A stretch of DNA of 63,556 nucleotides, filler included, from Licmophora abbreviata (lineage: Eukaryota), in assembly GCA_900291995.1 (NCBI GenBank). It is 16 parts of 16 records of this genome, joined end to end, with 100 filler letters (N's around TTAATTAATTAA, not from the genome) between each part and the next. Parts side by side here need not be neighbours in the genome. Positions count along the whole stretch, not along the records: positions 28,020 to 29,945 come from OLMU01002677.1; positions 30,046 to 37,130 come from OLMU01002678.1; 14 more parts are not named here. One strand, written 5' to 3'. The position numbers and the translations under genes were made by a program. The notes under the pieces are model-generated. The model was not told the origin of the DNA. It ran no database searches and was given only the letters and a program-made list of their open reading frames with translations. Positions 4,478-35,398 of this stretch are shown here, piece by piece (position 1 is the first letter of the stretch; every line of letters begins with the position of its first letter).

Positions 4478-5668
4478 ATGACATGGACGGGATTGCACGA
4501 CGCTGTCCTGCACCACAATGTTGACGAGGTGCAGCGACGTGTCCACAGCAATCCAGAGGAAGCCTTGAAAGTGGACGATCATGGCTCGACGCCCCTCCAC
4601 ATGGCATGTTGGGAGCATGCTGATCTGGTCATAATTCAAGCCTTGATGGAAGCCTATCCTGAAGGAGTACTCGAACACAACACGCATGGGGACACCCCAC
4701 TTCATGTCTTGCTGAGCAACCCGTACGCATCCCCAGACATTGTCCGAGCCTTGGTTAAGACGAACCCAATCGTCGCATCAATGCGCAACAAGGAAGGTCT
4801 GATGCCACTTCACGCGCTCTGTCGCAGCGATCCCAGCAACCACGATGTCATGGAGCTCCTCTTGGAAACCTATCCCTCAGCCGCTCTGACTCCGATCAAG
4901 GTACGTTCAGTGCGCAACCAGAAGTGAACCTAGCGTACCTCGATCGACATTGTCTCGCTTACCCCCGACTCATTTCTCGCGTAGATGGGCGATCCCGCCC
5001 CCAACAAGAGAGTCGATTCTCTTGACCAGCGCAAGGCGACAGACCACTTTCTCCTCCCAGGAGCCGTCCAGCTCAGTTCGAGCCCCAGCTCCGCGATGGA
5101 CTTGGAGTTTCGCGATCGTCGTCGCCAAGTCCGTGATGGCGCATATCCACTCCACATGGCACTGGCNNNNNNNNNNNNNNNNNNNNNNNNNNNNNNNNNN
5201 NNNNNNNNNNTTAATTAATTAANNNNNNNNNNNNNNNNNNNNNNNNNNNNNNNNNNNNNNNNNNNNTATCCACTCCACATGGCACTGGCCGCAAGCAGAA
5301 AGCCAGCCCAGGACACGGTTCGAATGTTGGTGCACGGAGCTCCAGAAGTCCTCGACAAGACCAACAAGTTTGGCGAAACGCCCTTGCACGTGGCACTGAC
5401 AAACGACGCTCCCGCAGCCATTATAGACGAGCTTGTGAGCCAAACGAAGTATGGCCCTTCTGCCTTGTCCATGGCGGAAACACGTCACGGAAACCTGCCG
5501 ATCCATGTGGCCGCCATGCATGGCTGTGATGCGCATGTGGCGCGATCAATGGTGGAACTAAAACCGGAAACCATTGAAGTTGTTAACAATCACGGCATGA
5601 AAGCATTCGAACTAGCCGTACTTTCGGGAAAGTGCAATGGAGACGTGATCCGCCTCTGGAAGATTTGA
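4478..5668 (+). CDS. Ankyrin-repeat protein (intron ~4901..4984; interrupted by gap 5167..5266 with overlapping flanks)
   Basis: Repeated motifs GSTPLHMAC, GDTPLHVLL, GLMPLHALC, GAYPLHMAL, GETPLHVAL and GNLPIHVAA. Confidence 0.9.
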
Positions 5669-26941: not shown

Positions 26942-28452
26942 TCATTTCGTCATCCACAGCATGTAGGGCAAAAAGTCAAACTGCATATCGTCGACACCCT
27001 TCACAGTCGTCCGAAAGTCGTCCAACAAGGCCACGACTCCCGGAAACGTGAACTCCCCGTCCACGCCCAAATCAAAGAGCGGCTTTCCCAAGAGTACCTT
27101 CCATGTCTTGGCCAACTCTTGTAGCAGAAAACACGCTCCGTCGTCGTTCCCGCCACAATCGTCGTCGTCTTGTTGAAACAGCCATGCATTGTTCTTGTGA
27201 ATCGTCAAGGTGAATGCCAAAAGCAAGTCAAACTGGATGCTTGCATGGTTGTCGTTGTCATCATGCTGACGGTAGGCCGGCTGCACGCTGTTTTTCCAAA
27301 CCGCCATGACACGCTTGCAAAAGTGGTTCGATGCCCAAAGATAATGCGTGTCATCGATCGTAGGGTCTTCTATGGTGACTGGAGCGAGCTGACGTTCCAT
27401 ACTCTGAACATACCATTCCCGATGCGTTGTAAGAAGAATGATGCGCATGGCGTTGACTTGATACTGAGAGCACGTGTGATGATCCGGAGGAACTTGTTGG
27501 TGGTGGTGGTGGTCGACGACACTGCTCCTCGATGCGCAGTAGTTGTAGTCCAGTCCGACACCACGAATGATGCGGTAGGCAACAGCATTTTCACGATGAC
27601 ACACGTGAAATAGAAACTCCATGGTGGTGGCGTAAGGAGACTGGATGGAAGTCTCCGCAGTCGCAGCCTTGGACCTCTTGGTGGGAGGAGACGGAACAAG
27701 CGCCAGAGGATCTGGGTGCGCGGTACTCCCTGAAATGGCCTCCGAAGTAGTGTCAGGTGTGACTTGACGACGAGCCGTCTTTGTAGTGACAATGCTTGGA
27801 TTTGGACTGGTGAGTAGTGCAGACACATCGTTCGTATCCTCCGACTGGGGAATCTTGACGAAGGTCTCGATATCTTGCGTGAGATAGTAGACCTTGACAT
27901 TGTTACTACTGGTCGTACTNNNNNNNNNNNNNNNNNNNNNNNNNNNNNNNNNNNNNNNNNNNNTTAATTAATTAANNNNNNNNNNNNNNNNNNNNNNNNN
28001 NNNNNNNNNNNNNNNNNNNGCGTGAGATAGTAGACCTTGACATTGTTACTACTGGTCGTACTACGAGTAGCAGTAGTACGAGTAGTAGTAGAAGTAGTAC
28101 TCGTGGTGACAACGGATGACTTGGGAGAACAGTTCATGGCATGCATGACACGCGGTTCCAGTCCAAACCGGTTTTTGACTTGCGAGACGGAGAGAATCTC
28201 CAAGTCGGGACGCCTGACCTGTGGCAGAATGGCTGCCGTCATGCCGCAAAAGACGTGGATCGTCAAGGGTGTCGGACGAGCCTTTGTCGCGGCGAAATGA
28301 CACAGTTTCCTCGACTCGGTCTCTTCCTTGTCGCAGAAGAAGCATTTCGGTGACTCGCGGGGAGCACTGCTGGGCGTCGGCGACGACATCATGAGGAGAA
28401 TGATCACTCTGCACAGGTCGTCGTCGTCGTCGTCGTCGTCGTTGCTCGACAC
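26942..28452 (-). CDS. Hypothetical protein with N-terminal C-x2-C...H-x2-C zinc knuckle; spans gap 27920..28019
   Basis: ORF 27964..28452 (KCFFC...IHVFCG) joins ORF 26942..27826 in frame once the ~43-nt duplicated gap flank is merged (NNVKVYYLT-QDIETFVK). Confidence 0.65.
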
Positions 28453-28770: not shown

Positions 28771-31700
28771 ATGACGCAGAAACGACGTTTCTTCCATTAC
28801 TTTGCACTGATTCGGCTCCTTCTCCTGGTCGGCGTCATGATTCCACCATCACTCCGTCATGTCGTGGGCTTTGTTCCTTCTTCCTTGCTACACCGACGAT
28901 CATCGACATGGTGCGCTACTCGATGGCTCCGAGTGGTGTCTCGTTGTCGTCCCTGGGTGATGCCACCAACTGGAATAGTATTGCACGACTCTCGTCAAGA
29001 CGCTACTGCTGCTAGTAAGACGGCGACGAATGGGACGATGATTCCTTCCACACAACAATTGGTCGAACGACGTTTGCAGGTACAACGCGCCAAGACGGAG
29101 GCGCGAGAACGATCGATACAACAACAGTACGAGCGGAATATACAGATAAAGAGACTTTTGCACACCAGCAATGCTGCTACGGATGATTCTGATGGCGCTT
29201 CGTCGTCGTATTCGGTACCACCGCTCTATGCGGTCAAGGTATCTGTATGCGAGGACTTACGGCGAGAATTGTCCCTCAATGGGCGTGAAAAGAGGGGAAG
29301 AGTTTTTATTCCAGTCGACACGGCGGGTTGTATGACACTCAAGGGGCTGAAACAAGAGTTGCATTCCTTTTTTCGATGTCTGAAACGAAGCAGCTATCTG
29401 CTGCAAGCCAGTCTGCCTACTGGTGAGTACTGAAAGCACTTTTCAAGGCTTTTGTGACGGAAGCAACTTACTGGTGTACTACTCATACTGACAATACTCA
29501 CGCGCTCGTTTCAATTTTTGGGGCAGTTACTTCTGATGGATCGATTGTTTCATTTTCAGAAGACGAGAATAGAACCTTGTGGAAAATAGAGTCAGACGAG
29601 GACGTCGTAGGAATATTCGCCGCAGCAGACGGCTTATTCCAAAGCGTCAGAGACCAGAGCAACGATGAGTCGCCATCACTGAAACGACCCTCTTTATTGG
29701 TGCATGTCGTCAAAGATCCAGACGCACCACCTCCACCCCCGCCTCCAGCCTATCTCGAAAAGATGCCGGATCCAGCTCAGTCGCCATCCATGACCATGTT
29801 GTCCTTTTACGCGTTTCCGCCAGAGGGGATTATTGACCCGGACGAGTTTGCCGTGATGCTCAAGAAGGTCTGGCAACCATTCCACGCTTTGGGACGAGTC
29901 TACGTGGCAGCGGAGGGTGTAAATGCGCAAATGAGTATTCCCACGNNNNNNNNNNNNNNNNNNNNNNNNNNNNNNNNNNNNNNNNNNNNTTAATTAATTA
30001 ANNNNNNNNNNNNNNNNNNNNNNNNNNNNNNNNNNNNNNNNNNNNGTTTCCGCCAGAGGGGATTATTGACCCGGACGAGTTTGCCGTGATGCTCAAGAAA
30101 GTCTGGCAACCATTCCACGCTTTGGGACGAGTCTACGTGGCAGCGGAGGGTGTAAATGCGCAAATGAGTATTCCCACGAATGTACTACCGAATTTTATGA
30201 AGTGTTGTACGGCCATTCCAGAGCTGGGAGAGTATATGGAGAATGGTATTAATGTTGATCCGAAACCCTTGAGTATGGAAGAATTTGCGGTTGCCGGGGT
30301 GCCGGTGAATGGAAAGGTGAGGTTTGAGTTTGCTTGAAGTCCATATCGTATTCTCATGTTTGTCCTGGAGACTAAATGGCCATCTACCTTTTCAGTCGGT
30401 ACCGCCGTTTCGAAACCTTCACATGCGCGTACGGGGACAGGTTGTGGCGGATGGACTAGATAAGGCACTCAACTGGCAGCAATCGGGGTACGATACGCCA
30501 CCGCTGGAGTGGCACAAAAAGCTGAAGGAGGCCAAGGAGAAGCGAGAGGAAGAGTCGGAAACTAAAGATGACCTCCCTGTCATTCTGGATTGCCGAAACA
30601 CGTACGAGACTGACGTCGGTCGGTTTGATGGGGCCGAGCCGCTCGATACGGAGAATTTTCGTGATAGTTGGGGCGTTCTAAAGGAGCGACTGGCCGATAC
30701 ACCCAAGGATGCTCCCATCATGACCTACTGTACTGGAGGTGCGTGTTGTTTGCGACTCAACAGGTGCAGGTTTGTCTGCGGTACTTACATGGCCGTGGCG
30801 ACTCACTATCGCTCCTGTTTCTGCTTGCAGGCATTCGATGCGTCAAAGTCGGGGCGTATCTTACACAGGAAATGGGGTTCACAAATGTTTCTCGGCTGGC
30901 CGGCGGGATAATTGCGTATGACCGAACGCTGAACGAAAAGGCTGCCGGTGAGGAACCCATGTTCAAGGGTACCAATTTTGTCTTTGATGGTCGCCTGGGT
31001 CGCGAAATCACGGACGATTCGTTGGGAATATGCTTCACTTGTGGCACGGAAACATCCATGGTGGGCAATTGTCGGAATGACAACTGTCACAAAAGAATAA
31101 TACAGTGCGAGAAATGTCGAACGTCATTTCACGGGACGTGCTCTGACGCATGCAAGCAGCGTGTCGGCAATAGCGCAATGCGTCCTCAAAGAGCTTTGAT
31201 AGACCTGGAATCGGCACCGGTGGATGTGGACTTTGAAGAGCAGACGTTCGCAACTCTTGAAGACTACAGCGTTGGACATTCGTCCCCGCTCCCTTCGCTA
31301 TACCACGAAGTGGAATTGAATACGAGACACTTCTTGCCATCTGGATCGCACATGGTATCAGGGGCGTCTCAAGGGAAACTATTAAATCAATTTGCTTCAT
31401 TGTCAAGGGAAGGGCGCATTTTGGAGTTTGGGACTTTCACAGGCTACGCTACGGCTTGCTTTTTGGAAGGCGCTTCGAACGCCGCTGACGCCATGGGCTA
31501 CACTGGTAGCGGAGGTACACGTGACGGCGGACCGTTCGTAATGTCGATGGAACGCGACGACAGAGCACGGAATATTGCGACTGCACACCTACGCGGGATG
31601 TGCGAGCATGGAACTGGGGAAGCTGCCGCCGAAGCTATCTGCGCTATGCGTGGTCAGAATGGAGAAGGTACGTATATTGTCGCTGGAAGTACTTGGTAGG

Positions 31701-32217
31701 CCTGTCTTTGCTCAACATTCTGTCTTCGTTTCTCGCAGTACCTGAAATTAAAGAGGACATAGTGTCGCTGTCGTTTGGCGGAGTTGCTGGGTGCGAGCTT
31801 GTGCGTGTGACTGATGCACTGGCCACGTTGGAGGAAATGGCACAAGGAAAAGGGAGTTTGAATCCAGCACCTTTTGACCTGGTATTTGTTGACGCGGACA
31901 AGACTCGTTTGTTAGAGTACGCGGAAGCCTGCCTGAGTAGCGACCGAGTTCTGAAGAAAGGTGGTCTAATTGTGGTGGACAATGTCTTATGGAAAGGACT
32001 GGTGCTGGAGGCTTGCTCTGGTCAATTTTCATCGCACCGAGAGGATGACGACTCTATAGTAGGCGACAACGATGGATCTGGTTCGAGGAAGAGTCGTCGA
32101 GCACGCAAGCTGGCAGCCAAGATGCATTATTTCAACAAAGAGATAGTCAAAAACGATCGCGCAGAGGTTGTTCTTCTCCCTGTACGTGATGGTCTTAGTG
32201 TTATCCGGAAGAGATAG
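28771..32217 (+). CDS. trhO: Fusion protein: plastid-type targeting peptide, unknown N-domain, TrhO (UPF0176 rhodanese-type tRNA U34 hydroxylase) and Methyltransf_3 O-methyltransferase
   Basis: Exons ~28771..29422, 29527..(gap)..30316, 30396..30738, 30831..31668, 31739..32217. TrhO motifs: LSFYAF, GRVYVAAEGVNAQMS, ILDCRNTYETDVGRFDGA, YCTGGIRCVK, LAGGIIAY, FKGTNFVFDGR and a Cys-rich tail. OMT motifs: MVSGASQGKLL, ILEFGTFTGY, FDLVFVDADK, GGLIVVDNVLWKG, LPVRDGL. Confidence 0.9.
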
Positions 32218-32482: not shown

Positions 32483-35398
32483 ATGGGACGAAAGAAAAAG
32501 TCGGGGAATAAACAAAGTAGGGCAGAGACCAAAGAATTGTCTAGAGGGTCTCAAGACAATGGAGGAGAGAATCTTTTGTGTTCTGTGGATTGGTTGGAAT
32601 TACAGCTGAGTAATTCGTTGAAAGCAGGAAGCAGCTCCACCCGCAACTCTACAAAACCTCCGATTCTTCATGTAAACGAATCAGATGCAAAAAGATTGAA
32701 CGTCGGGAATGGAGACGATGTAATTATGTTGCTGAGGAGCACCAACGGATCGATCGCGGCGACAGCAGTCTGTGGTGTCGCGGTCGCTCCTAACGGCTCA
32801 TCGCCGAGGCGACTGTCAACTTCACCTCAAAGCCGCATGACCTCGGGAAGCATCACAAAGTCGATGCGGCTTCCAGCGGGACAGTGTCAGATTTCTCCAA
32901 TCCTTTTTGCGAACCAACTGCTACAGGTTGCCTTGGAGACGAAAGTTTTATCTGCACCAATTGAGACTTCGTCGATACCGCAGCCGTCGCCTTCGACGCC
33001 GTCTTCGGGGTTTTCTTTTGCCAAAGGAGGAGGAGGCGATCTTCTGATCTCACCAAAGAGCCAGGATACACCGAAATTTCCCTCCAGCCCTGCTTCAAAT
33101 CTTTCAAAGGCTGCGGATTGTGTAGTCGTCCCGGTCGACTCTGAAGTCGGGGATCAATTGTCGAGGATGGTGTGCGATGAGGCAGCGCAACTGCACCTAC
33201 AGATTTCGTCGGATGCGATCTCTGAGTCTATTTGGAAAGTGTCAAGGTACATGCTCAGCAGACTGGTGTTGGCGACCAATGAAGGACGATACATTCATGT
33301 TGGAGACACAATTGGTACCTCCTTTCAAGGAAAAATCATCGAGCTATCCGTGATGTCGGTCGTCGGGATCAGTGCAAAAGGTGCTAGTTCATTGGAAGAA
33401 AGACTGAATAGCTTGTCTCTTGATGCTGCAACTCGGATGCATAGTGCTACTCTGATGGATGACGTACGCTTGGCGCTCCGTCGGGATCTAGAGCGAACGG
33501 CCCTTTTTCGATTGTCCACATCCACACAAGTCTCGACCCATCTTGATGGCAGTGCTGCTCCATCGGAGGATTCAACGAGTGTCAATCCAACAAAGGTAGT
33601 CGCTGGTCTTGACACGACTATTGAACAAGTGAAACGTTTACTCTTACCCCCTCTGCTACACCCTGAGCTGTTCTCAAAAGGTTCTCTCAAACCGCCACGA
33701 GGAGTTCTATTGTTCGGGACTAGCGGAGTGGGCAAAACACTACTGGCCAAGCAGATTGCCTTGGACTTAGAGTTAGAAACGCGGGTAGAGTACATTCAGT
33801 GTACTTCACTCCAGTCACATACTGCTGTTGTCGGGAAGGCTGAACGAAAGCTGACCCAGCTCTTCCAAACTCTCCAGAAGCAGTCGACAAAACCGTCAGG
33901 TGCCCTGCTGATCTTGGACGACATTCATTTGATTTGCCCCAAACGGGATGGTCGTAACCCCGGAGTTGACCGTCTGGCGGCAACGCTTTTGGCTTTACTT
34001 GATGGTATAGGACCGATGGCAGACGCGAGCCGATGTGATGGGAAACTAGTGATTCTCGCAATGACTACCGACCCCTCTGCGTTGGACCCAGCATTGCGAC
34101 GCCCTGGTCGCCTGGATACGGAAGTGGAAGTGGCGATACCAGACGAGCTTACTCGAGCCCAAATAATGAGATTCCAGCTTGAAAGCTTCAGGCCGGCCGT
34201 TGATCTTGTATCGCTTAGTGACGAGGACGTACTTGCCTTGTCCCGTCTCGCAAAAGGATTCAACGGAGCAGATTGCATGCTTGCCATAAAGGAAGCGGCG
34301 CGATCGAGCGCTACTGCAAGTTTGGCTTCGCCTGAGGCTAAACCACAAGTGTCTCTACATGATCTTCAATTGGCCATTCGATCTACTAAACCATCGACAA
34401 TCAGCGCAATTACCGTCGAGATTCCGCAAGTGCGCTGGTCGTCGATCGGAGGAATGGAATCCGTCAAACAAAAGCTACGCGAAGCTATTGAGCTTCCTAT
34501 CACCCACGCTCATCTATTTGAAAAGCTAAACATTCCACCCCCAAGAGGTGTGTTGCTGTACGGGCCACCTGGTTGCTCCAAGACACTGATGGCAAGGGCC
34601 CTGGCTACGGAAGGTCAAATGAACTTTCTCGCTGTAAAGGGACCAGAACTTTTGAGCAAATGGTTGGGAGAGAGCGAGAGAGCTCTCGCATCGCTGTTTC
34701 GACGGGCCCGAATGGCAAGTCCGTGTATTGTCTTTTTTGACGAGATCGATGCAATTGCAGCCAGGAGGGGAAGCGGTGATGGTAGCGCTGGGGGCGAGCG
34801 ACTGCTTTCGCAACTGCTGACCGAGCTTGATGGTGTGAGGAGCACCGCTGGCAAACTCGGGTCGTCCGACATGAAAGAACGGATTGTCGTAGTGGGGGCC
34901 ACCAATCGACCAGACTTGTTAGACAGCGCTTTGATCCGACCGGGACGAATCGATCGGAAGATTTATGTTGGACTACCAGACGAGAGCAGTCGTGCTCGTA
35001 TCTTTGAGATTGGTCTGAGTAATAAAGCGTGCTCTGATGACGTTTCGGTGAGTACGACATGTTGAGACCACATGCGTCGCAGCTCTGGTCTAATATTTTG
35101 TTCACCCATTTTCGTCTCTCGTTTTAAAAAGATTACTGAACTGGCGAAAGACGAGGTCAGCAGCGGGTTTTCGGGAGCCGAACTCATCGGAATCTGCAGA
35201 GAAGCAGCGTTGTTTGCCATTGAGGAACAAGACGACGAGGAGCGAACTTCGGATGAAGACCACAGTTCTGCCTCGCCTCGGATTGGGGCTCGACATCTGT
35301 TGCAAGCTATTGGTCGAATGCAGCGCCAGGTCACACCAGAGATGCTTGACTTTTACGCATCCTACAATAACGGCACGAAGATAGAGGTAATAGGATGA
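32483..35398 (+). CDS. Double-ring AAA+ ATPase, CDC48 family (AFG2/SPATA5-like); intron ~35049..35131
   Basis: D1: PRGVLLFGTSGVGKT, ILDDIH, LRRPGRLD. D2: WSSIGG, GVLLYGPPGCSKT, SKWLGESER, FFDEIDAI, ATNRPD, RPGRIDR, GFSGAEL. Confidence 0.9.

What the first reader, a model, noticed from the sequence alone, without database searches (positions are those of the whole stretch)
28771..32217. TrhO-TrmR-like fusion: a candidate single-polypeptide mo5U34 tRNA wobble-modification pathway for the diatom plastid
Seen: a complete TrhO/UPF0176 domain runs in frame, within one exon (30831..31668), into a complete Methyltransf_3 O-methyltransferase, behind a signal peptide ending VVG-FVP. Established: bacterial TrhO (YceA) hydroxylates U34 to ho5U using O2, and Bacillus TrmR (YrrM), a Methyltransf_3/CCoAOMT-like enzyme, methylates ho5U to mo5U. 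Inference: the fusion links two consecutive steps and predicts mo5U34 in organellar tRNAs (Ala/Val/Thr/Pro/Ser UNN) in an O2-rich compartment. I am not aware of this fusion or modification being characterised in algae.
Basis: partly seen in the sequence, partly recalled or inferred. Interest (0 to 1): 0.88.

Follow-up and report, generated by a model that had tools for sequence, protein, structure and literature searches.

The report
Diatom TrhO–O-methyltransferase fusion gene
A single diatom gene joins a tRNA wobble-uridine hydroxylase to an O-methyltransferase behind a plastid-type import signal, so it probably makes 5-methoxyuridine in plastid tRNAs; the fusion is real, but it was already noted in print in 2019 and has never been tested in algae.

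Summary
One + strand gene (ATG 28771, stop 32215-32217, five exons, 955 aa) encodes, in order:
- a signal-peptide-like N-terminus ending VVG|F;
- a complete TrhO (UPF0176_N, rhodanese with CTGGIRC, Rhodanese_C);
- a complete Methyltransf_3 O-methyltransferase (OMT).

The TrhO/OMT junction lies inside one exon, 30831-31667.

Corrections:
- Exon 2 holds an assembly linker plus a 133-nt duplicated flank (29946-30178).
- The OMT carries two insertions.

The fusion is conserved in diatoms, other ochrophytes, Vitrella, four red algae and oomycetes.

It is not new. Sakai et al. 2019 used the yceA-trmR fusion of Phaeodactylum and Phytophthora as the clue that led to TrhO.

"TrmR-like" holds only at family level. 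The OMT scores closer to solved bacterial OMTs (3cbg, 3tr6, 5lhm) and to a Bacteroidota-wide stand-alone OMT than to Bacillus TrmR.

Indirect support for an RNA substrate:
- the nearest relatives are mostly TrhO-fused, and two are SpoU-fused;
- in 201 Bacteroidota genomes the OMT co-occurs with TrhO.

Plastid targeting is supported by a hydrophobic N-terminus followed by a small residue and Phe in 25 of 48 orthologue rows. Oomycete copies carry N-termini that look mitochondrial.

Best reading: a plastid tRNA U34 to ho5U to mo5U enzyme (confidence 0.55), untested.

The parts
28771..28869 (+). Start codon and signal-peptide-like region (M1-G33), ending VVG before F34 (28870-28872)
   Evidence: Read directly from the sequence. 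A hydrophobic window followed by [AGSC]F is found in 25 of 48 M-started orthologue rows; shuffled N-termini give a mean of 3.4 and a maximum of 8, and internal windows give 0.
28870..29208 (+). Ser/Arg/Thr-rich transit-peptide-like stretch and a poorly conserved linker
   Evidence: Composition read from the translation. Orthologues align only from residue 81-91 onward.
29209..29756 (+). PB1/ubiquitin-like (beta-grasp) N-domain, residues 147-294. It is split by intron 1 (29423-29526) and ends in a poly-Pro run.
   Evidence: A profile of 8 diatom copies hits the model at 2.5e-59 and 83 of 83 diatom-list fusions of at least 700 aa. The AF2 model has pLDDT 82.8 and pTM 0.75. The nine best VIA-align rows are all PB1 domains, Z 9.6-8.2. 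Foldseek gave no row at E<=0.001.
29793..30232 (+). UPF0176_N (acylphosphatase-like) domain of TrhO, interrupted by the assembly artefact 29946-30178
   Evidence: Pfam PF17773 at 4.1e-09 and 2.8e-10.
29946..30178 (.). Assembly linker (N44-TTAATTAATTAA-N44) plus a 133-nt duplicate of 29813-29945 (1 mismatch, at 29867). This is not biology.
   Evidence: Three of the window's 15 linkers have overlapping flanks.
30396..30964 (+). Rhodanese domain of TrhO. It includes HMRVRGQ and the active-site loop CTGGIRC (30729-30738 + 30831-30841), which is split by intron 3 (30739-30830).
   Evidence: NCBIfam TrhO NF001133 hits exon 3 at 2.9e-16. Alignments to 4f67 and 9j5o. Essential residues from Sakai 2019.
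30965..31156 (+). Rhodanese_C, the Cys-rich C-terminal domain of TrhO
   Evidence: Pfam PF12368 at 2.5e-17, profile 1-66 of 66. Aligns to 9j5o residues 213-324.
31235..32214 (+). Methyltransf_3 O-methyltransferase domain (residues 653-955). It is split by intron 4 (31668-31738) and has two insertions. It contains LEFGTFTGY, FVDADK, VDNVLW, a basic patch RKSRRARK, and RDG near the end.
   Evidence: Pfam. Profile of 30 stand-alone relatives. 11 of 12 invariant columns kept.
32215..32217 (+). Stop codon TAG

Best explanation
The gene is a nuclear gene for a plastid-imported, bifunctional tRNA wobble-uridine enzyme.

Import. After co-translational entry through the signal peptide and import through the F-dependent transit signal, the protein would sit in the stroma.

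First step. The TrhO part (UPF0176_N + rhodanese with CTGGIRC + Cys-rich Rhodanese_C) would hydroxylate U34 of plastid-encoded tRNAs with O2 to give ho5U.

Second step. The fused cation-dependent OMT would then transfer a methyl group from SAM to the 5-hydroxyl to give mo5U34. Fusion keeps the two steps on one tRNA-bound protein.

What is shown: gene structure, fusion, domain completeness, conserved catalytic residues, wide conservation of the fusion, and the conserved N-terminal signal.

What is inferred: both activities, the tRNA substrate of the OMT, the compartment, and the role of the PB1-like domain (perhaps oligomerisation or partner binding).
For: Fusion and completeness.
- establish the gene model and domains.
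- TrhO equivalog NF001133 covers positions 2-226 of 229 in orthologues P0010 and P0050 (148.5 and 151.5 bits).
- The best solved relative is 'tRNA uridine(34) hydroxylase' 9j5o at 6.8e-25.
- CTGGIRC and the two basic beta-sheet residues are kept.

OMT.
- D135/K138/D161/N162 are kept in 163 of 163 fused domains.

Conservation of the fusion.
- 117 of the 120 listed diatom-type hits carry Rhodanese_C plus Methyltransf_3.
- These include MMETSP transcripts marked complete, so fused mRNAs exist in relatives.

Nearest OMT relatives.
- I scanned 48 of the 53 proteins of 400 aa or more among the best 150 representatives out of 1.84 billion. Of those 48, 29 are TrhO-fused, 2 are fused to a SpoU RNA 2'-O-methylase, 11 are tandem OMTs, 1 is fused to N6_N4_Mtase and 5 are other.

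Named holders of the fusion.
- Red algae: Rhodosorus, Cyanidiococcus, Porphyridium.
- Also Vitrella, Triparma, Chattonella, Phaeothamnion, Mallomonas, Epipyxis and an ochromonad.

Stand-alone relatives.
- The best 80 prokaryotic loci are all Bacteroidota.
- In 201 genomes of that phylum the OMT and TrhO co-occur: 96 have both, 25 the OMT only, 11 TrhO only, 69 neither. The odds ratio is 24, not corrected for kinship.

Targeting.
- 25 of 48 rows carry the signal, against a shuffled mean of 3.4.

Prior print.
- Sakai 2019 used this very fusion as functional linkage.
Against: - No activity, localisation or nucleoside data exist for any alga, according to literature searches.
- The OMT is far from validated TrmR. 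5zw3 scores 26.6 bits and 8k1f 23.1 bits, against 53.8 for 3cbg. With the stand-alone profile, TrmR scores 130 bits, below plant CCoAOMTs at about 150 and COMTD1 at 160.
- From recall, 3cbg, 2hnk and 5lhm methylate catechols in vitro.
- TrhO orthologue scores fall below NCBIfam's equivalog cut-off (148-151 against 170).
- Reviews state that chloroplasts decode family boxes with unmodified U34 (passages in PMC11571807).
- Oomycetes have the fusion without a plastid.
- 23 of 48 orthologue rows lack the N-terminal pattern. Several are probably truncated models, and Thalassiosirales rows have a signal peptide without F at +1.
- In 5 of 5 Bacteroidota genomes the OMT and TrhO are not neighbours.
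Confidence: 0.55

Rival explanations
1. The enzymology is the same (U34 to ho5U to mo5U), but the diatom protein works in mitochondria, or in both organelles, on mitochondrial tRNAs.
For: Oomycetes, which have no plastid, carry the fusion (Sakai 2019 passage; Aphanomyces P0377, P0378 and P0380). Two of the three Aphanomyces N-termini are Arg-rich and free of acidic residues, as in mitochondrial presequences (my reading, no predictor was run). 23 of 48 diatom-type rows lack the signal-plus-F pattern.
Against: The window's N-terminus has a hydrophobic signal-peptide-like core followed by G|F. From recall, that is the diatom plastid import signature and is not expected on mitochondrial proteins. 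The same pattern appears in 25 of 48 rows against a shuffled mean of 3.4. Apart from the oomycetes, all named holders of the fusion are red algae or lineages with a red-derived plastid.
Confidence: 0.12
2. The OMT does not methylate ho5U34. The TrhO part may hydroxylate tRNA, but the fused OMT acts on another acceptor, such as a small-molecule catechol or another RNA position, so the product is ho5U or something else.
For: The OMT's closest solved relatives are generic bacterial O-methyltransferases (3cbg, 2hnk, 5lhm, 3r3h, 3tr6), not TrmR. From recall, several of these methylate catechols in vitro. No NCBIfam model names this family. The TrmR-specific arginines R86, R90 and R178 of Ryu 2018 could not be checked. 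The M. tuberculosis paper notes a TrmR homologue in a genome without a known ho5U-forming hydroxylase, which shows that homology at this level is a weak guide.
Against: The fusion to TrhO is conserved across lineages about 40% identical in the OMT domain. A second, independent fusion of the same OMT clade joins it to a SpoU RNA methylase. The stand-alone family co-occurs with TrhO in Bacteroidota. 5-hydroxyuracil has a hydroxyl next to a carbonyl, which is a catechol-like metal ligand (inference).
Confidence: 0.2
3. The fusion is an artefact of assembly or gene modelling, and two separate genes have been read as one.
For: The scaffold is stitched from contigs with 15 linkers. One linker, with a duplicated flank, lies inside this gene. 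No RNA run could be listed for this organism.
Against: The linker lies in the UPF0176_N part, not at the TrhO/OMT junction. That junction is inside one uninterrupted exon and open frame. 117 of 120 listed homologues from independent genomes, metagenomes and transcriptomes carry both parts.
Confidence: 0.02

Closest known systems
E. coli TrhO (YceA), the O2-dependent tRNA U34 hydroxylase (Sakai et al. 2019; PDB 9j5o; Legionella homologue 4f67)
   Same: It has the same three-domain core: UPF0176_N, rhodanese with the CTGGIR loop, and Cys-rich Rhodanese_C. The essential C, T, G and R residues and the two basic beta-sheet residues are conserved.
   Different: The diatom protein is eukaryotic and nuclear-encoded. 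It has a targeting signal, an extra PB1-like domain in front and an OMT behind. It scores below NCBIfam's equivalog cut-off. Its activity is untested.
B. subtilis TrmR (YrrM), the ho5U34 to mo5U34 methyltransferase (Ryu et al. 2018; PDB 5zw3/5zw4)
   Same: It shares Pfam family PF01596, SAM dependence and the Asp/Asp/Asn metal site. It is also physically linked to an ho5U-forming enzyme. Here the link is a fusion; from recall, in Bacillus it is the yrrMNO operon.
   Different: The match is only 26.6 bits, 1.1e-05. Ryu et al. found TrmR neighbours (more than 40% identity) only in Firmicutes. The diatom domain has two insertions. The TrmR-specific arginines were not checked.
Bacterial cation-dependent OMTs with solved structures (3cbg, 3tr6, 5lhm, 3r3h, 2hnk) and the Bacteroidota-wide stand-alone OMT of about 212 aa
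   Same: These are the closest sequence relatives of the OMT domain. 11 of 12 invariant columns are shared.
   Different: They are stand-alone proteins. From recall, those assayed were tested on catechols rather than RNA. The Bacteroidota family has no assigned function (no NCBIfam hit).
The yceA-trmR fusion of Phaeodactylum tricornutum and Phytophthora, noted by Sakai et al. 2019 (Fig. 3b legend and text)
   Same: It is the same architecture, and in the case of Phaeodactylum the same kind of organism. It was used there as gene-fusion evidence for a shared pathway.
   Different: The fusion was only listed there, and the organisms were called 'bacterial species'. The passages I saw make no statement on compartment, the extra N-domain, OMT subfamily or distribution.

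Membership tests
TrhO (UPF0176/YceA tRNA U34 hydroxylase) | Architecture UPF0176_N + Rhodanese + Rhodanese_C | tested here: met
   (window exons). (orthologues). The rhodanese match in the window's exon 3 alone is below cut-off because the domain is split by an intron.
TrhO (UPF0176/YceA tRNA U34 hydroxylase) | CXGGXR loop with the essential residues C200, T201, G203 and R205 (Sakai 2019) | tested here: met
   CTGGIRC is read across the exon 3/4 junction.
TrhO (UPF0176/YceA tRNA U34 hydroxylase) | Basic beta-sheet residues K112 and R114 | tested here: met
   The window's HMRVRGQ aligns with KVKLRKE of Legionella 4f67, placing R and R at the two positions. The mapping to E. coli numbering is by motif, not by a direct E. 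coli alignment.
TrhO (UPF0176/YceA tRNA U34 hydroxylase) | NCBIfam equivalog NF001133 score at or above the 170-bit cut-off | tested here: not met
   Orthologues P0010 and P0050 score 148.5 and 151.5 bits over profile positions 2-226 of 229. The window's own protein could be scored only exon by exon.
TrhO (UPF0176/YceA tRNA U34 hydroxylase) | O2-dependent ho5U34 formation on tRNA | not testable with these tools
   Needs biochemistry or genetics.
TrmR (YrrM) orthologues as delimited by Ryu et al. 2018 | Close sequence neighbour of B. subtilis TrmR (E about 1e-41, more than 40% identity) | tested here: not met
   P0050 against 5zw3 gives 1.1e-05 and 26.6 bits; against 8k1f, 1.3e-04. The profile of stand-alone relatives ranks TrmR below CCoAOMTs.
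TrmR (YrrM) orthologues as delimited by Ryu et al. 2018 | tRNA-backbone arginines R86, R90 and R178 | not tested
   No TrmR sequence could be obtained, and the PDB tool prints alignments only for the five best hits. A conserved basic patch (RKSRRARK; RKNRRARK in orthologues) lies about 40 residues from the C-terminus. Its equivalence to R178/R181 is my guess.
TrmR (YrrM) orthologues as delimited by Ryu et al. 2018 | Physical linkage to an ho5U-forming enzyme | tested here: met
   In-frame fusion to TrhO.
Class I cation-dependent O-methyltransferases (Pfam Methyltransf_3) | SAM-binding motif and the Asp/Lys/Asp/Asn catalytic-metal residues | tested here: met
   LEFGTFTGY, FVDADK and VDNVLW are present. 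11 of 12 invariant and 23 of 25 near-invariant columns are kept. D135, K138, D161 and N162 are kept in 163 of 163 fused domains.
Diatom plastid-targeted proteins (signal peptide plus ASAFAP-type site; rule recalled) | Hydrophobic signal peptide followed by a small residue and F at +1 | tested here: inconclusive
   VVG|F is present in the window and the pattern appears in 25 of 48 rows. However, I used my own crude rule. No SignalP or ASAFind was available, and there is no localisation data.
PB1 / ubiquitin-like beta-grasp domains | Fold match of the N-domain | tested here: inconclusive
   The VIA-align top nine rows are all PB1 domains, Z 9.6-8.2, rmsd 2.2-4.1 A over 81-103 residues. Foldseek found nothing at E<=0.001. 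The tool notes that a best Z of 7-8 is common. There was no Pfam hit.

The most novel reading that the evidence does not exclude
Plastids of the red lineage (red algae, diatoms and other ochrophytes, chromerids), and oomycete mitochondria, do not rely on bare U34. They install mo5U34 with a single three-module enzyme made of a PB1-like domain, TrhO and an OMT. The OMT belongs to a second, non-orthologous ho5U methyltransferase family. Its stand-alone members, the Bacteroidota-wide OMT and the 3cbg/3tr6-type bacterial 'catechol' OMTs, would be the missing TrmR of many Gram-negative bacteria.
Probability: 0.4. Interest if true: 0.7.

Novelty: new member of a known kind. Interest (0 to 1): 0.5.

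Why it matters
If the prediction holds, xo5U-type wobble modification, so far a bacterial trait, would operate in plastids that carry out a large share of ocean photosynthesis. The textbook picture of plastid family-box decoding by unmodified U34 would then need revising for the red lineage. It would also assign a function to a very widespread bacterial OMT family. The test is straightforward: knock out the gene and run tRNA mass spectrometry in a transformable diatom. Interest is tempered because the fusion was already published as a comparative-genomics clue, and because Sakai et al. already suggested that xo5U exists in eukaryotes.

Tried and rejected
- RNA evidence for this organism: no RNA holder was listed.
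- The whole genome of the window is not held. I could not look for paralogues, plastid tRNA genes or cmoA/cmoB.
- The protein atlas gave only the protein's own diatom cluster and no usable hit for the N-domain.
- The earlier-findings index gave nothing.
- I could not obtain a B. subtilis TrmR, CCoAOMT or 3cbg sequence as a stored protein. Control genomes in the genome search only 'ring'. As a result the OMT tree (134 domains, quick LG+G4, weak backbone) has no functional outgroup. It shows only that 33 of 37 stand-alone rows group apart from the fused ones (SH-aLRT 91). For that tree I kept 17 of the 117 diatom-list domains and dropped most 90%-cluster members.
- Gene neighbourhood in Bacteroidota: the OMT and TrhO are not adjacent in 5 of 5 genomes.
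- Literature search was badly posed (min_terms 2 matched plastid plus chloroplast) and is worthless. One search replaced it.
- Foldseek on the N-domain gave no match at E<=0.001.
- The diatom N-domain profile did not detect the domain in red algae, Vitrella, chrysophytes or oomycetes. A similar motif is visible by eye in some of them.
- I did not test TrhP (peptidase U32) co-occurrence, because U32 proteins are too widespread to be informative.
- I did not fold the full-length protein, because no inter-domain error map is returned.
Full report
**What is in the sequence**

Between 28771 and 32217 the + strand carries one gene. I read five exons from the raw sequence and the open frames:
- 28771-29422
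- 29527-30316
- 30396-30738
- 30831-31667
- 31739-32217

Exon 2 is interrupted at 29946-30045 by a scaffold linker (N44, TTAATTAATTAA, N44). The linker is followed by a 133-nt repeat of the bases just before it, with one mismatch at 29867. With linker and repeat removed, the spliced frame is 955 codons with no internal stop. All four introns are GT..AG and 71-104 nt long. The product aligns to orthologues from residue 81-91 to the last residue at 61-65% identity. The window holds 15 such linkers, and 3 of them have overlapping flanks, so the interruption is an assembly artefact.

**Domains**

Pfam on the exon translations finds:
- UPF0176_N on both sides of the linker (4.1e-09, 2.8e-10);
- a weak rhodanese match in exon 3;
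- Rhodanese_C in the first part of exon 4 (2.5e-17);
- Methyltransf_3 in the end of exon 4 and in exon 5 (9.3e-23).

The frame 30668-31699 is open across the Rhodanese_C/OMT boundary. The exon ends at 31667, not 31668.

NCBIfam's TrhO equivalog covers positions 2-226 of 229 in two full-length orthologues, at 148.5 and 151.5 bits, below its 170-bit cut-off. The best solved relatives of the front half are 'tRNA uridine(34) hydroxylase' 9j5o (6.8e-25) and Legionella 4f67.

Sakai et al. 2019 (passages seen) found C200, T201, G203 and R205 of the CTGGIR loop, and K112 and R114, to be needed for activity. The window encodes CTGGIRC, split by intron 3. It also encodes HMRVRGQ where Legionella has KVKLRKE. 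A preprint reports two zinc sites in E. coli TrhO (passages). The window's Rhodanese_C is Cys-rich and aligns to 9j5o residues 213-324.

**An unmentioned third module**

Residues 147-294, between the targeting region and TrhO, are conserved. A profile of eight diatom copies finds the domain in 83 of 83 diatom-list fusions of at least 700 aa. It also finds it in Triparma (5.1e-51) and, weakly, in Chattonella-cluster, Phaeothamnion and Tribonema proteins. It does not find it in red algae, Vitrella, chrysophytes or oomycetes.

An AlphaFold2 model from that small alignment has mean pLDDT 82.8 and pTM 0.75. VIA-align places nine PB1 domains on top (Z 9.6-8.2), followed by ubiquitin-like domains. 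Foldseek has no row at E<=0.001. I call it PB1/ubiquitin-like with moderate confidence. Its role is unknown.

**How widespread is the fusion**

With exon 4 as query, 202 longer proteins match. Of the 120 listed, 117 carry both Rhodanese_C and Methyltransf_3; P0007, P0109 and P0114 do not. Named ones are diatoms: Seminavis, Nitzschia, Fistulifera, Cylindrotheca, Cyclotella, Pseudo-nitzschia, Amphora, Mayamaea and Stephanocyclus. The list also includes MMETSP transcripts marked complete, so fused mRNAs exist in relatives. The best identity was 72%, so the window's own full-length protein is not in that collection.

Outside diatoms the fusion is named in:
- red algae Rhodosorus, Cyanidiococcus and Porphyridium;
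- Vitrella, Triparma, Chattonella, Phaeothamnion, Mallomonas, Epipyxis, an ochromonad, and Ectocarpus (partial);
- oomycetes Aphanomyces astaci, A. stellatus and A. invadans.

No green alga, plant, haptophyte or bacterium appeared among the named fusions I saw. Most rows have no name, so this is not evidence of absence.

**It is already in print**

Sakai et al. [quoted passage not shown] They used this to pick yceA as the second hydroxylase. They also remark that trhO homologues in eukaryotes suggest xo5U-type modification there (passages).

My searches for TrhO, TrmR, 5-methoxyuridine or 5-hydroxyuridine together with chloroplast or TSTD2 found no characterisation in any alga. The only plant items are two surveys that list a TrhO homologue predicted to be in the chloroplast (for coconut; oil palm seen only in the listing). 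Supplements of Sakai et al. were not opened; their Supplementary Data 2 may list more eukaryotes.

**Is the OMT a TrmR?**

Only loosely.

Against solved structures, the OMT half of orthologue P0050 is closest to 3cbg (53.8 bits), 2hnk, 5lhm, 3r3h and 3tr6. B. subtilis TrmR 5zw3 gets 26.6 bits and 8k1f gets 23.1. Ryu et al. 2018 (sections 14, 15 and 18 read) found TrmR neighbours only in Firmicutes. They name R86, R90 and R178 as orthologue-specific residues. I could not bring a TrmR sequence into the session, so those residues are untested.

A full HMMER scan of 1.84 billion representatives with the OMT part gave 3606 hits. Of the 53 proteins of 400 aa or more among the best 150, I scanned 48 with Pfam:
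- 29 are TrhO-OMT fusions, at about 35-49% identity to the diatom domain;
- 2 are fused to a SpoU RNA 2'-O-methylase (RlmB/TrmH-like, below cut-offs);
- 11 are tandem OMTs;
- 1 is fused to N6_N4_Mtase;
- 5 have unknown extensions.

The stand-alone relatives of about 212 aa are Bacteroidota. Salibacter is named, and the best 80 genomic loci are all Bacteroidota. Their profile ranks 3tr6, 5lhm, 3cbg, 3r3h and 2hnk (192-212 bits) above COMTD1 (160), plant CCoAOMTs (about 150) and TrmR (130). The window's domain keeps 11 of 12 invariant and 23 of 25 near-invariant columns of that family.

My tree of 134 OMT domains has a weak backbone and no functional outgroup. It shows only that 33 of 37 stand-alone rows group apart from the fused ones.

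**Indirect evidence that this OMT clade works on ho5U**

Three observations bear on this:
- The TrhO fusion is old and conserved.
- A second fusion of the same clade is to an RNA methylase.
- In 201 sampled genomes of the Bacteroidota phylum, the OMT (E<=1e-30) and UPF0176_N (E<=1e-08) co-occur. 96 have both, 25 the OMT only, 11 TrhO only and 69 neither, for an odds ratio of 24.

The co-occurrence count ignores kinship, so its p-value is not meaningful. The two genes are not neighbours in 5 of 5 genomes examined. The M. tuberculosis study is a caution: it has a 'TrmR homologue' without a known hydroxylase.

**Compartment**

The window's N-terminus has a hydrophobic core followed by VVG|F and then a Ser/Arg-rich stretch. 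Using a crude rule of my own, 25 of 48 M-started orthologue rows show a hydrophobic window followed by [AGSC]F. Shuffled N-termini give a mean of 3.4 and a maximum of 8 in 200 shuffles, and internal windows give 0.

The rows without the pattern include probable 5'-truncated models. They also include Thalassiosirales proteins that have a signal peptide but no F at +1. That this pattern means plastid import in diatoms is recalled knowledge; no predictor was available.

Two of the three Aphanomyces proteins begin with Arg-rich, acid-free stretches that look mitochondrial, and they lack the PB1-like domain. The module therefore appears to be an organellar one, aimed at the plastid in diatoms.

**Verdict**

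The pathway logic and plastid targeting are reasonable and now better grounded. The fusion is not new, the OMT is not a TrmR orthologue, and mo5U in plastid tRNA remains a prediction that runs against the usual statement that chloroplast U34 is unmodified (passages).

**Surroundings**

The downstream gene (32483-35062, + strand) is a double AAA ATPase. Two upstream open frames have no Pfam match. Nothing there bears on the finding.

Noticed in passing
window 1867-62261 (15 sites; e.g. 29946-30045, 27920-28019, 5167-5266): The scaffold is stitched with a fixed linker, N44-TTAATTAATTAA-N44. At 3 of the 15 linkers the flanks overlap (133, 43 and 23 nt). Contig ends were therefore joined without merging, which can break gene models, as it does in exon 2 here.
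   Followed up: yes
P0182, P0190, P0277 (metagenome proteins, 723-769 aa): The same OMT clade also occurs fused behind a SpoU-type RNA 2'-O-methyltransferase (RlmB/TrmH-like, below NCBIfam cut-offs). This is a second, independent link of the OMT clade to RNA modification. The organism is unknown.
   Followed up: partly
P0141, P0142, P0143, P0150, P0153, P0156, P0161, P0176, P0177, P0183, P0188: These are tandem double Methyltransf_3 proteins of 440-593 aa among the closest relatives. One (P0156) is from the fungus Rhodosporidiobolus, and another cluster is abundant in marine metagenomes. Their function is unknown.
   Followed up: no
P0082 (EukProt record labelled Alexandrium tamarense): This fusion protein sits inside the Thalassiosirales group of the OMT tree, with P0110, P0085 and P0101. 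The dinoflagellate label may reflect diatom contamination of that data set.
   Followed up: no
P0377, P0378, P0380 (Aphanomyces): Oomycete copies of the fusion are shorter (588-657 aa) and lack the PB1-like domain. Two of the three start with Arg-rich, mitochondrial-looking presequences.
   Followed up: partly
window 32483-35062 (+): The neighbouring gene encodes a protein with two AAA ATPase domains (Pfam AAA 9.9e-67, two stretches). It starts about 270 nt after the stop codon of the fusion gene.
   Followed up: partly
P0385 (Tribonema minus, 717 aa), P0381, P0383, P0384: These are close relatives with the TrhO domains but no Methyltransf_3 in the precomputed Pfam list. They may be split or truncated forms of the fusion in some ochrophytes.
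   Followed up: no
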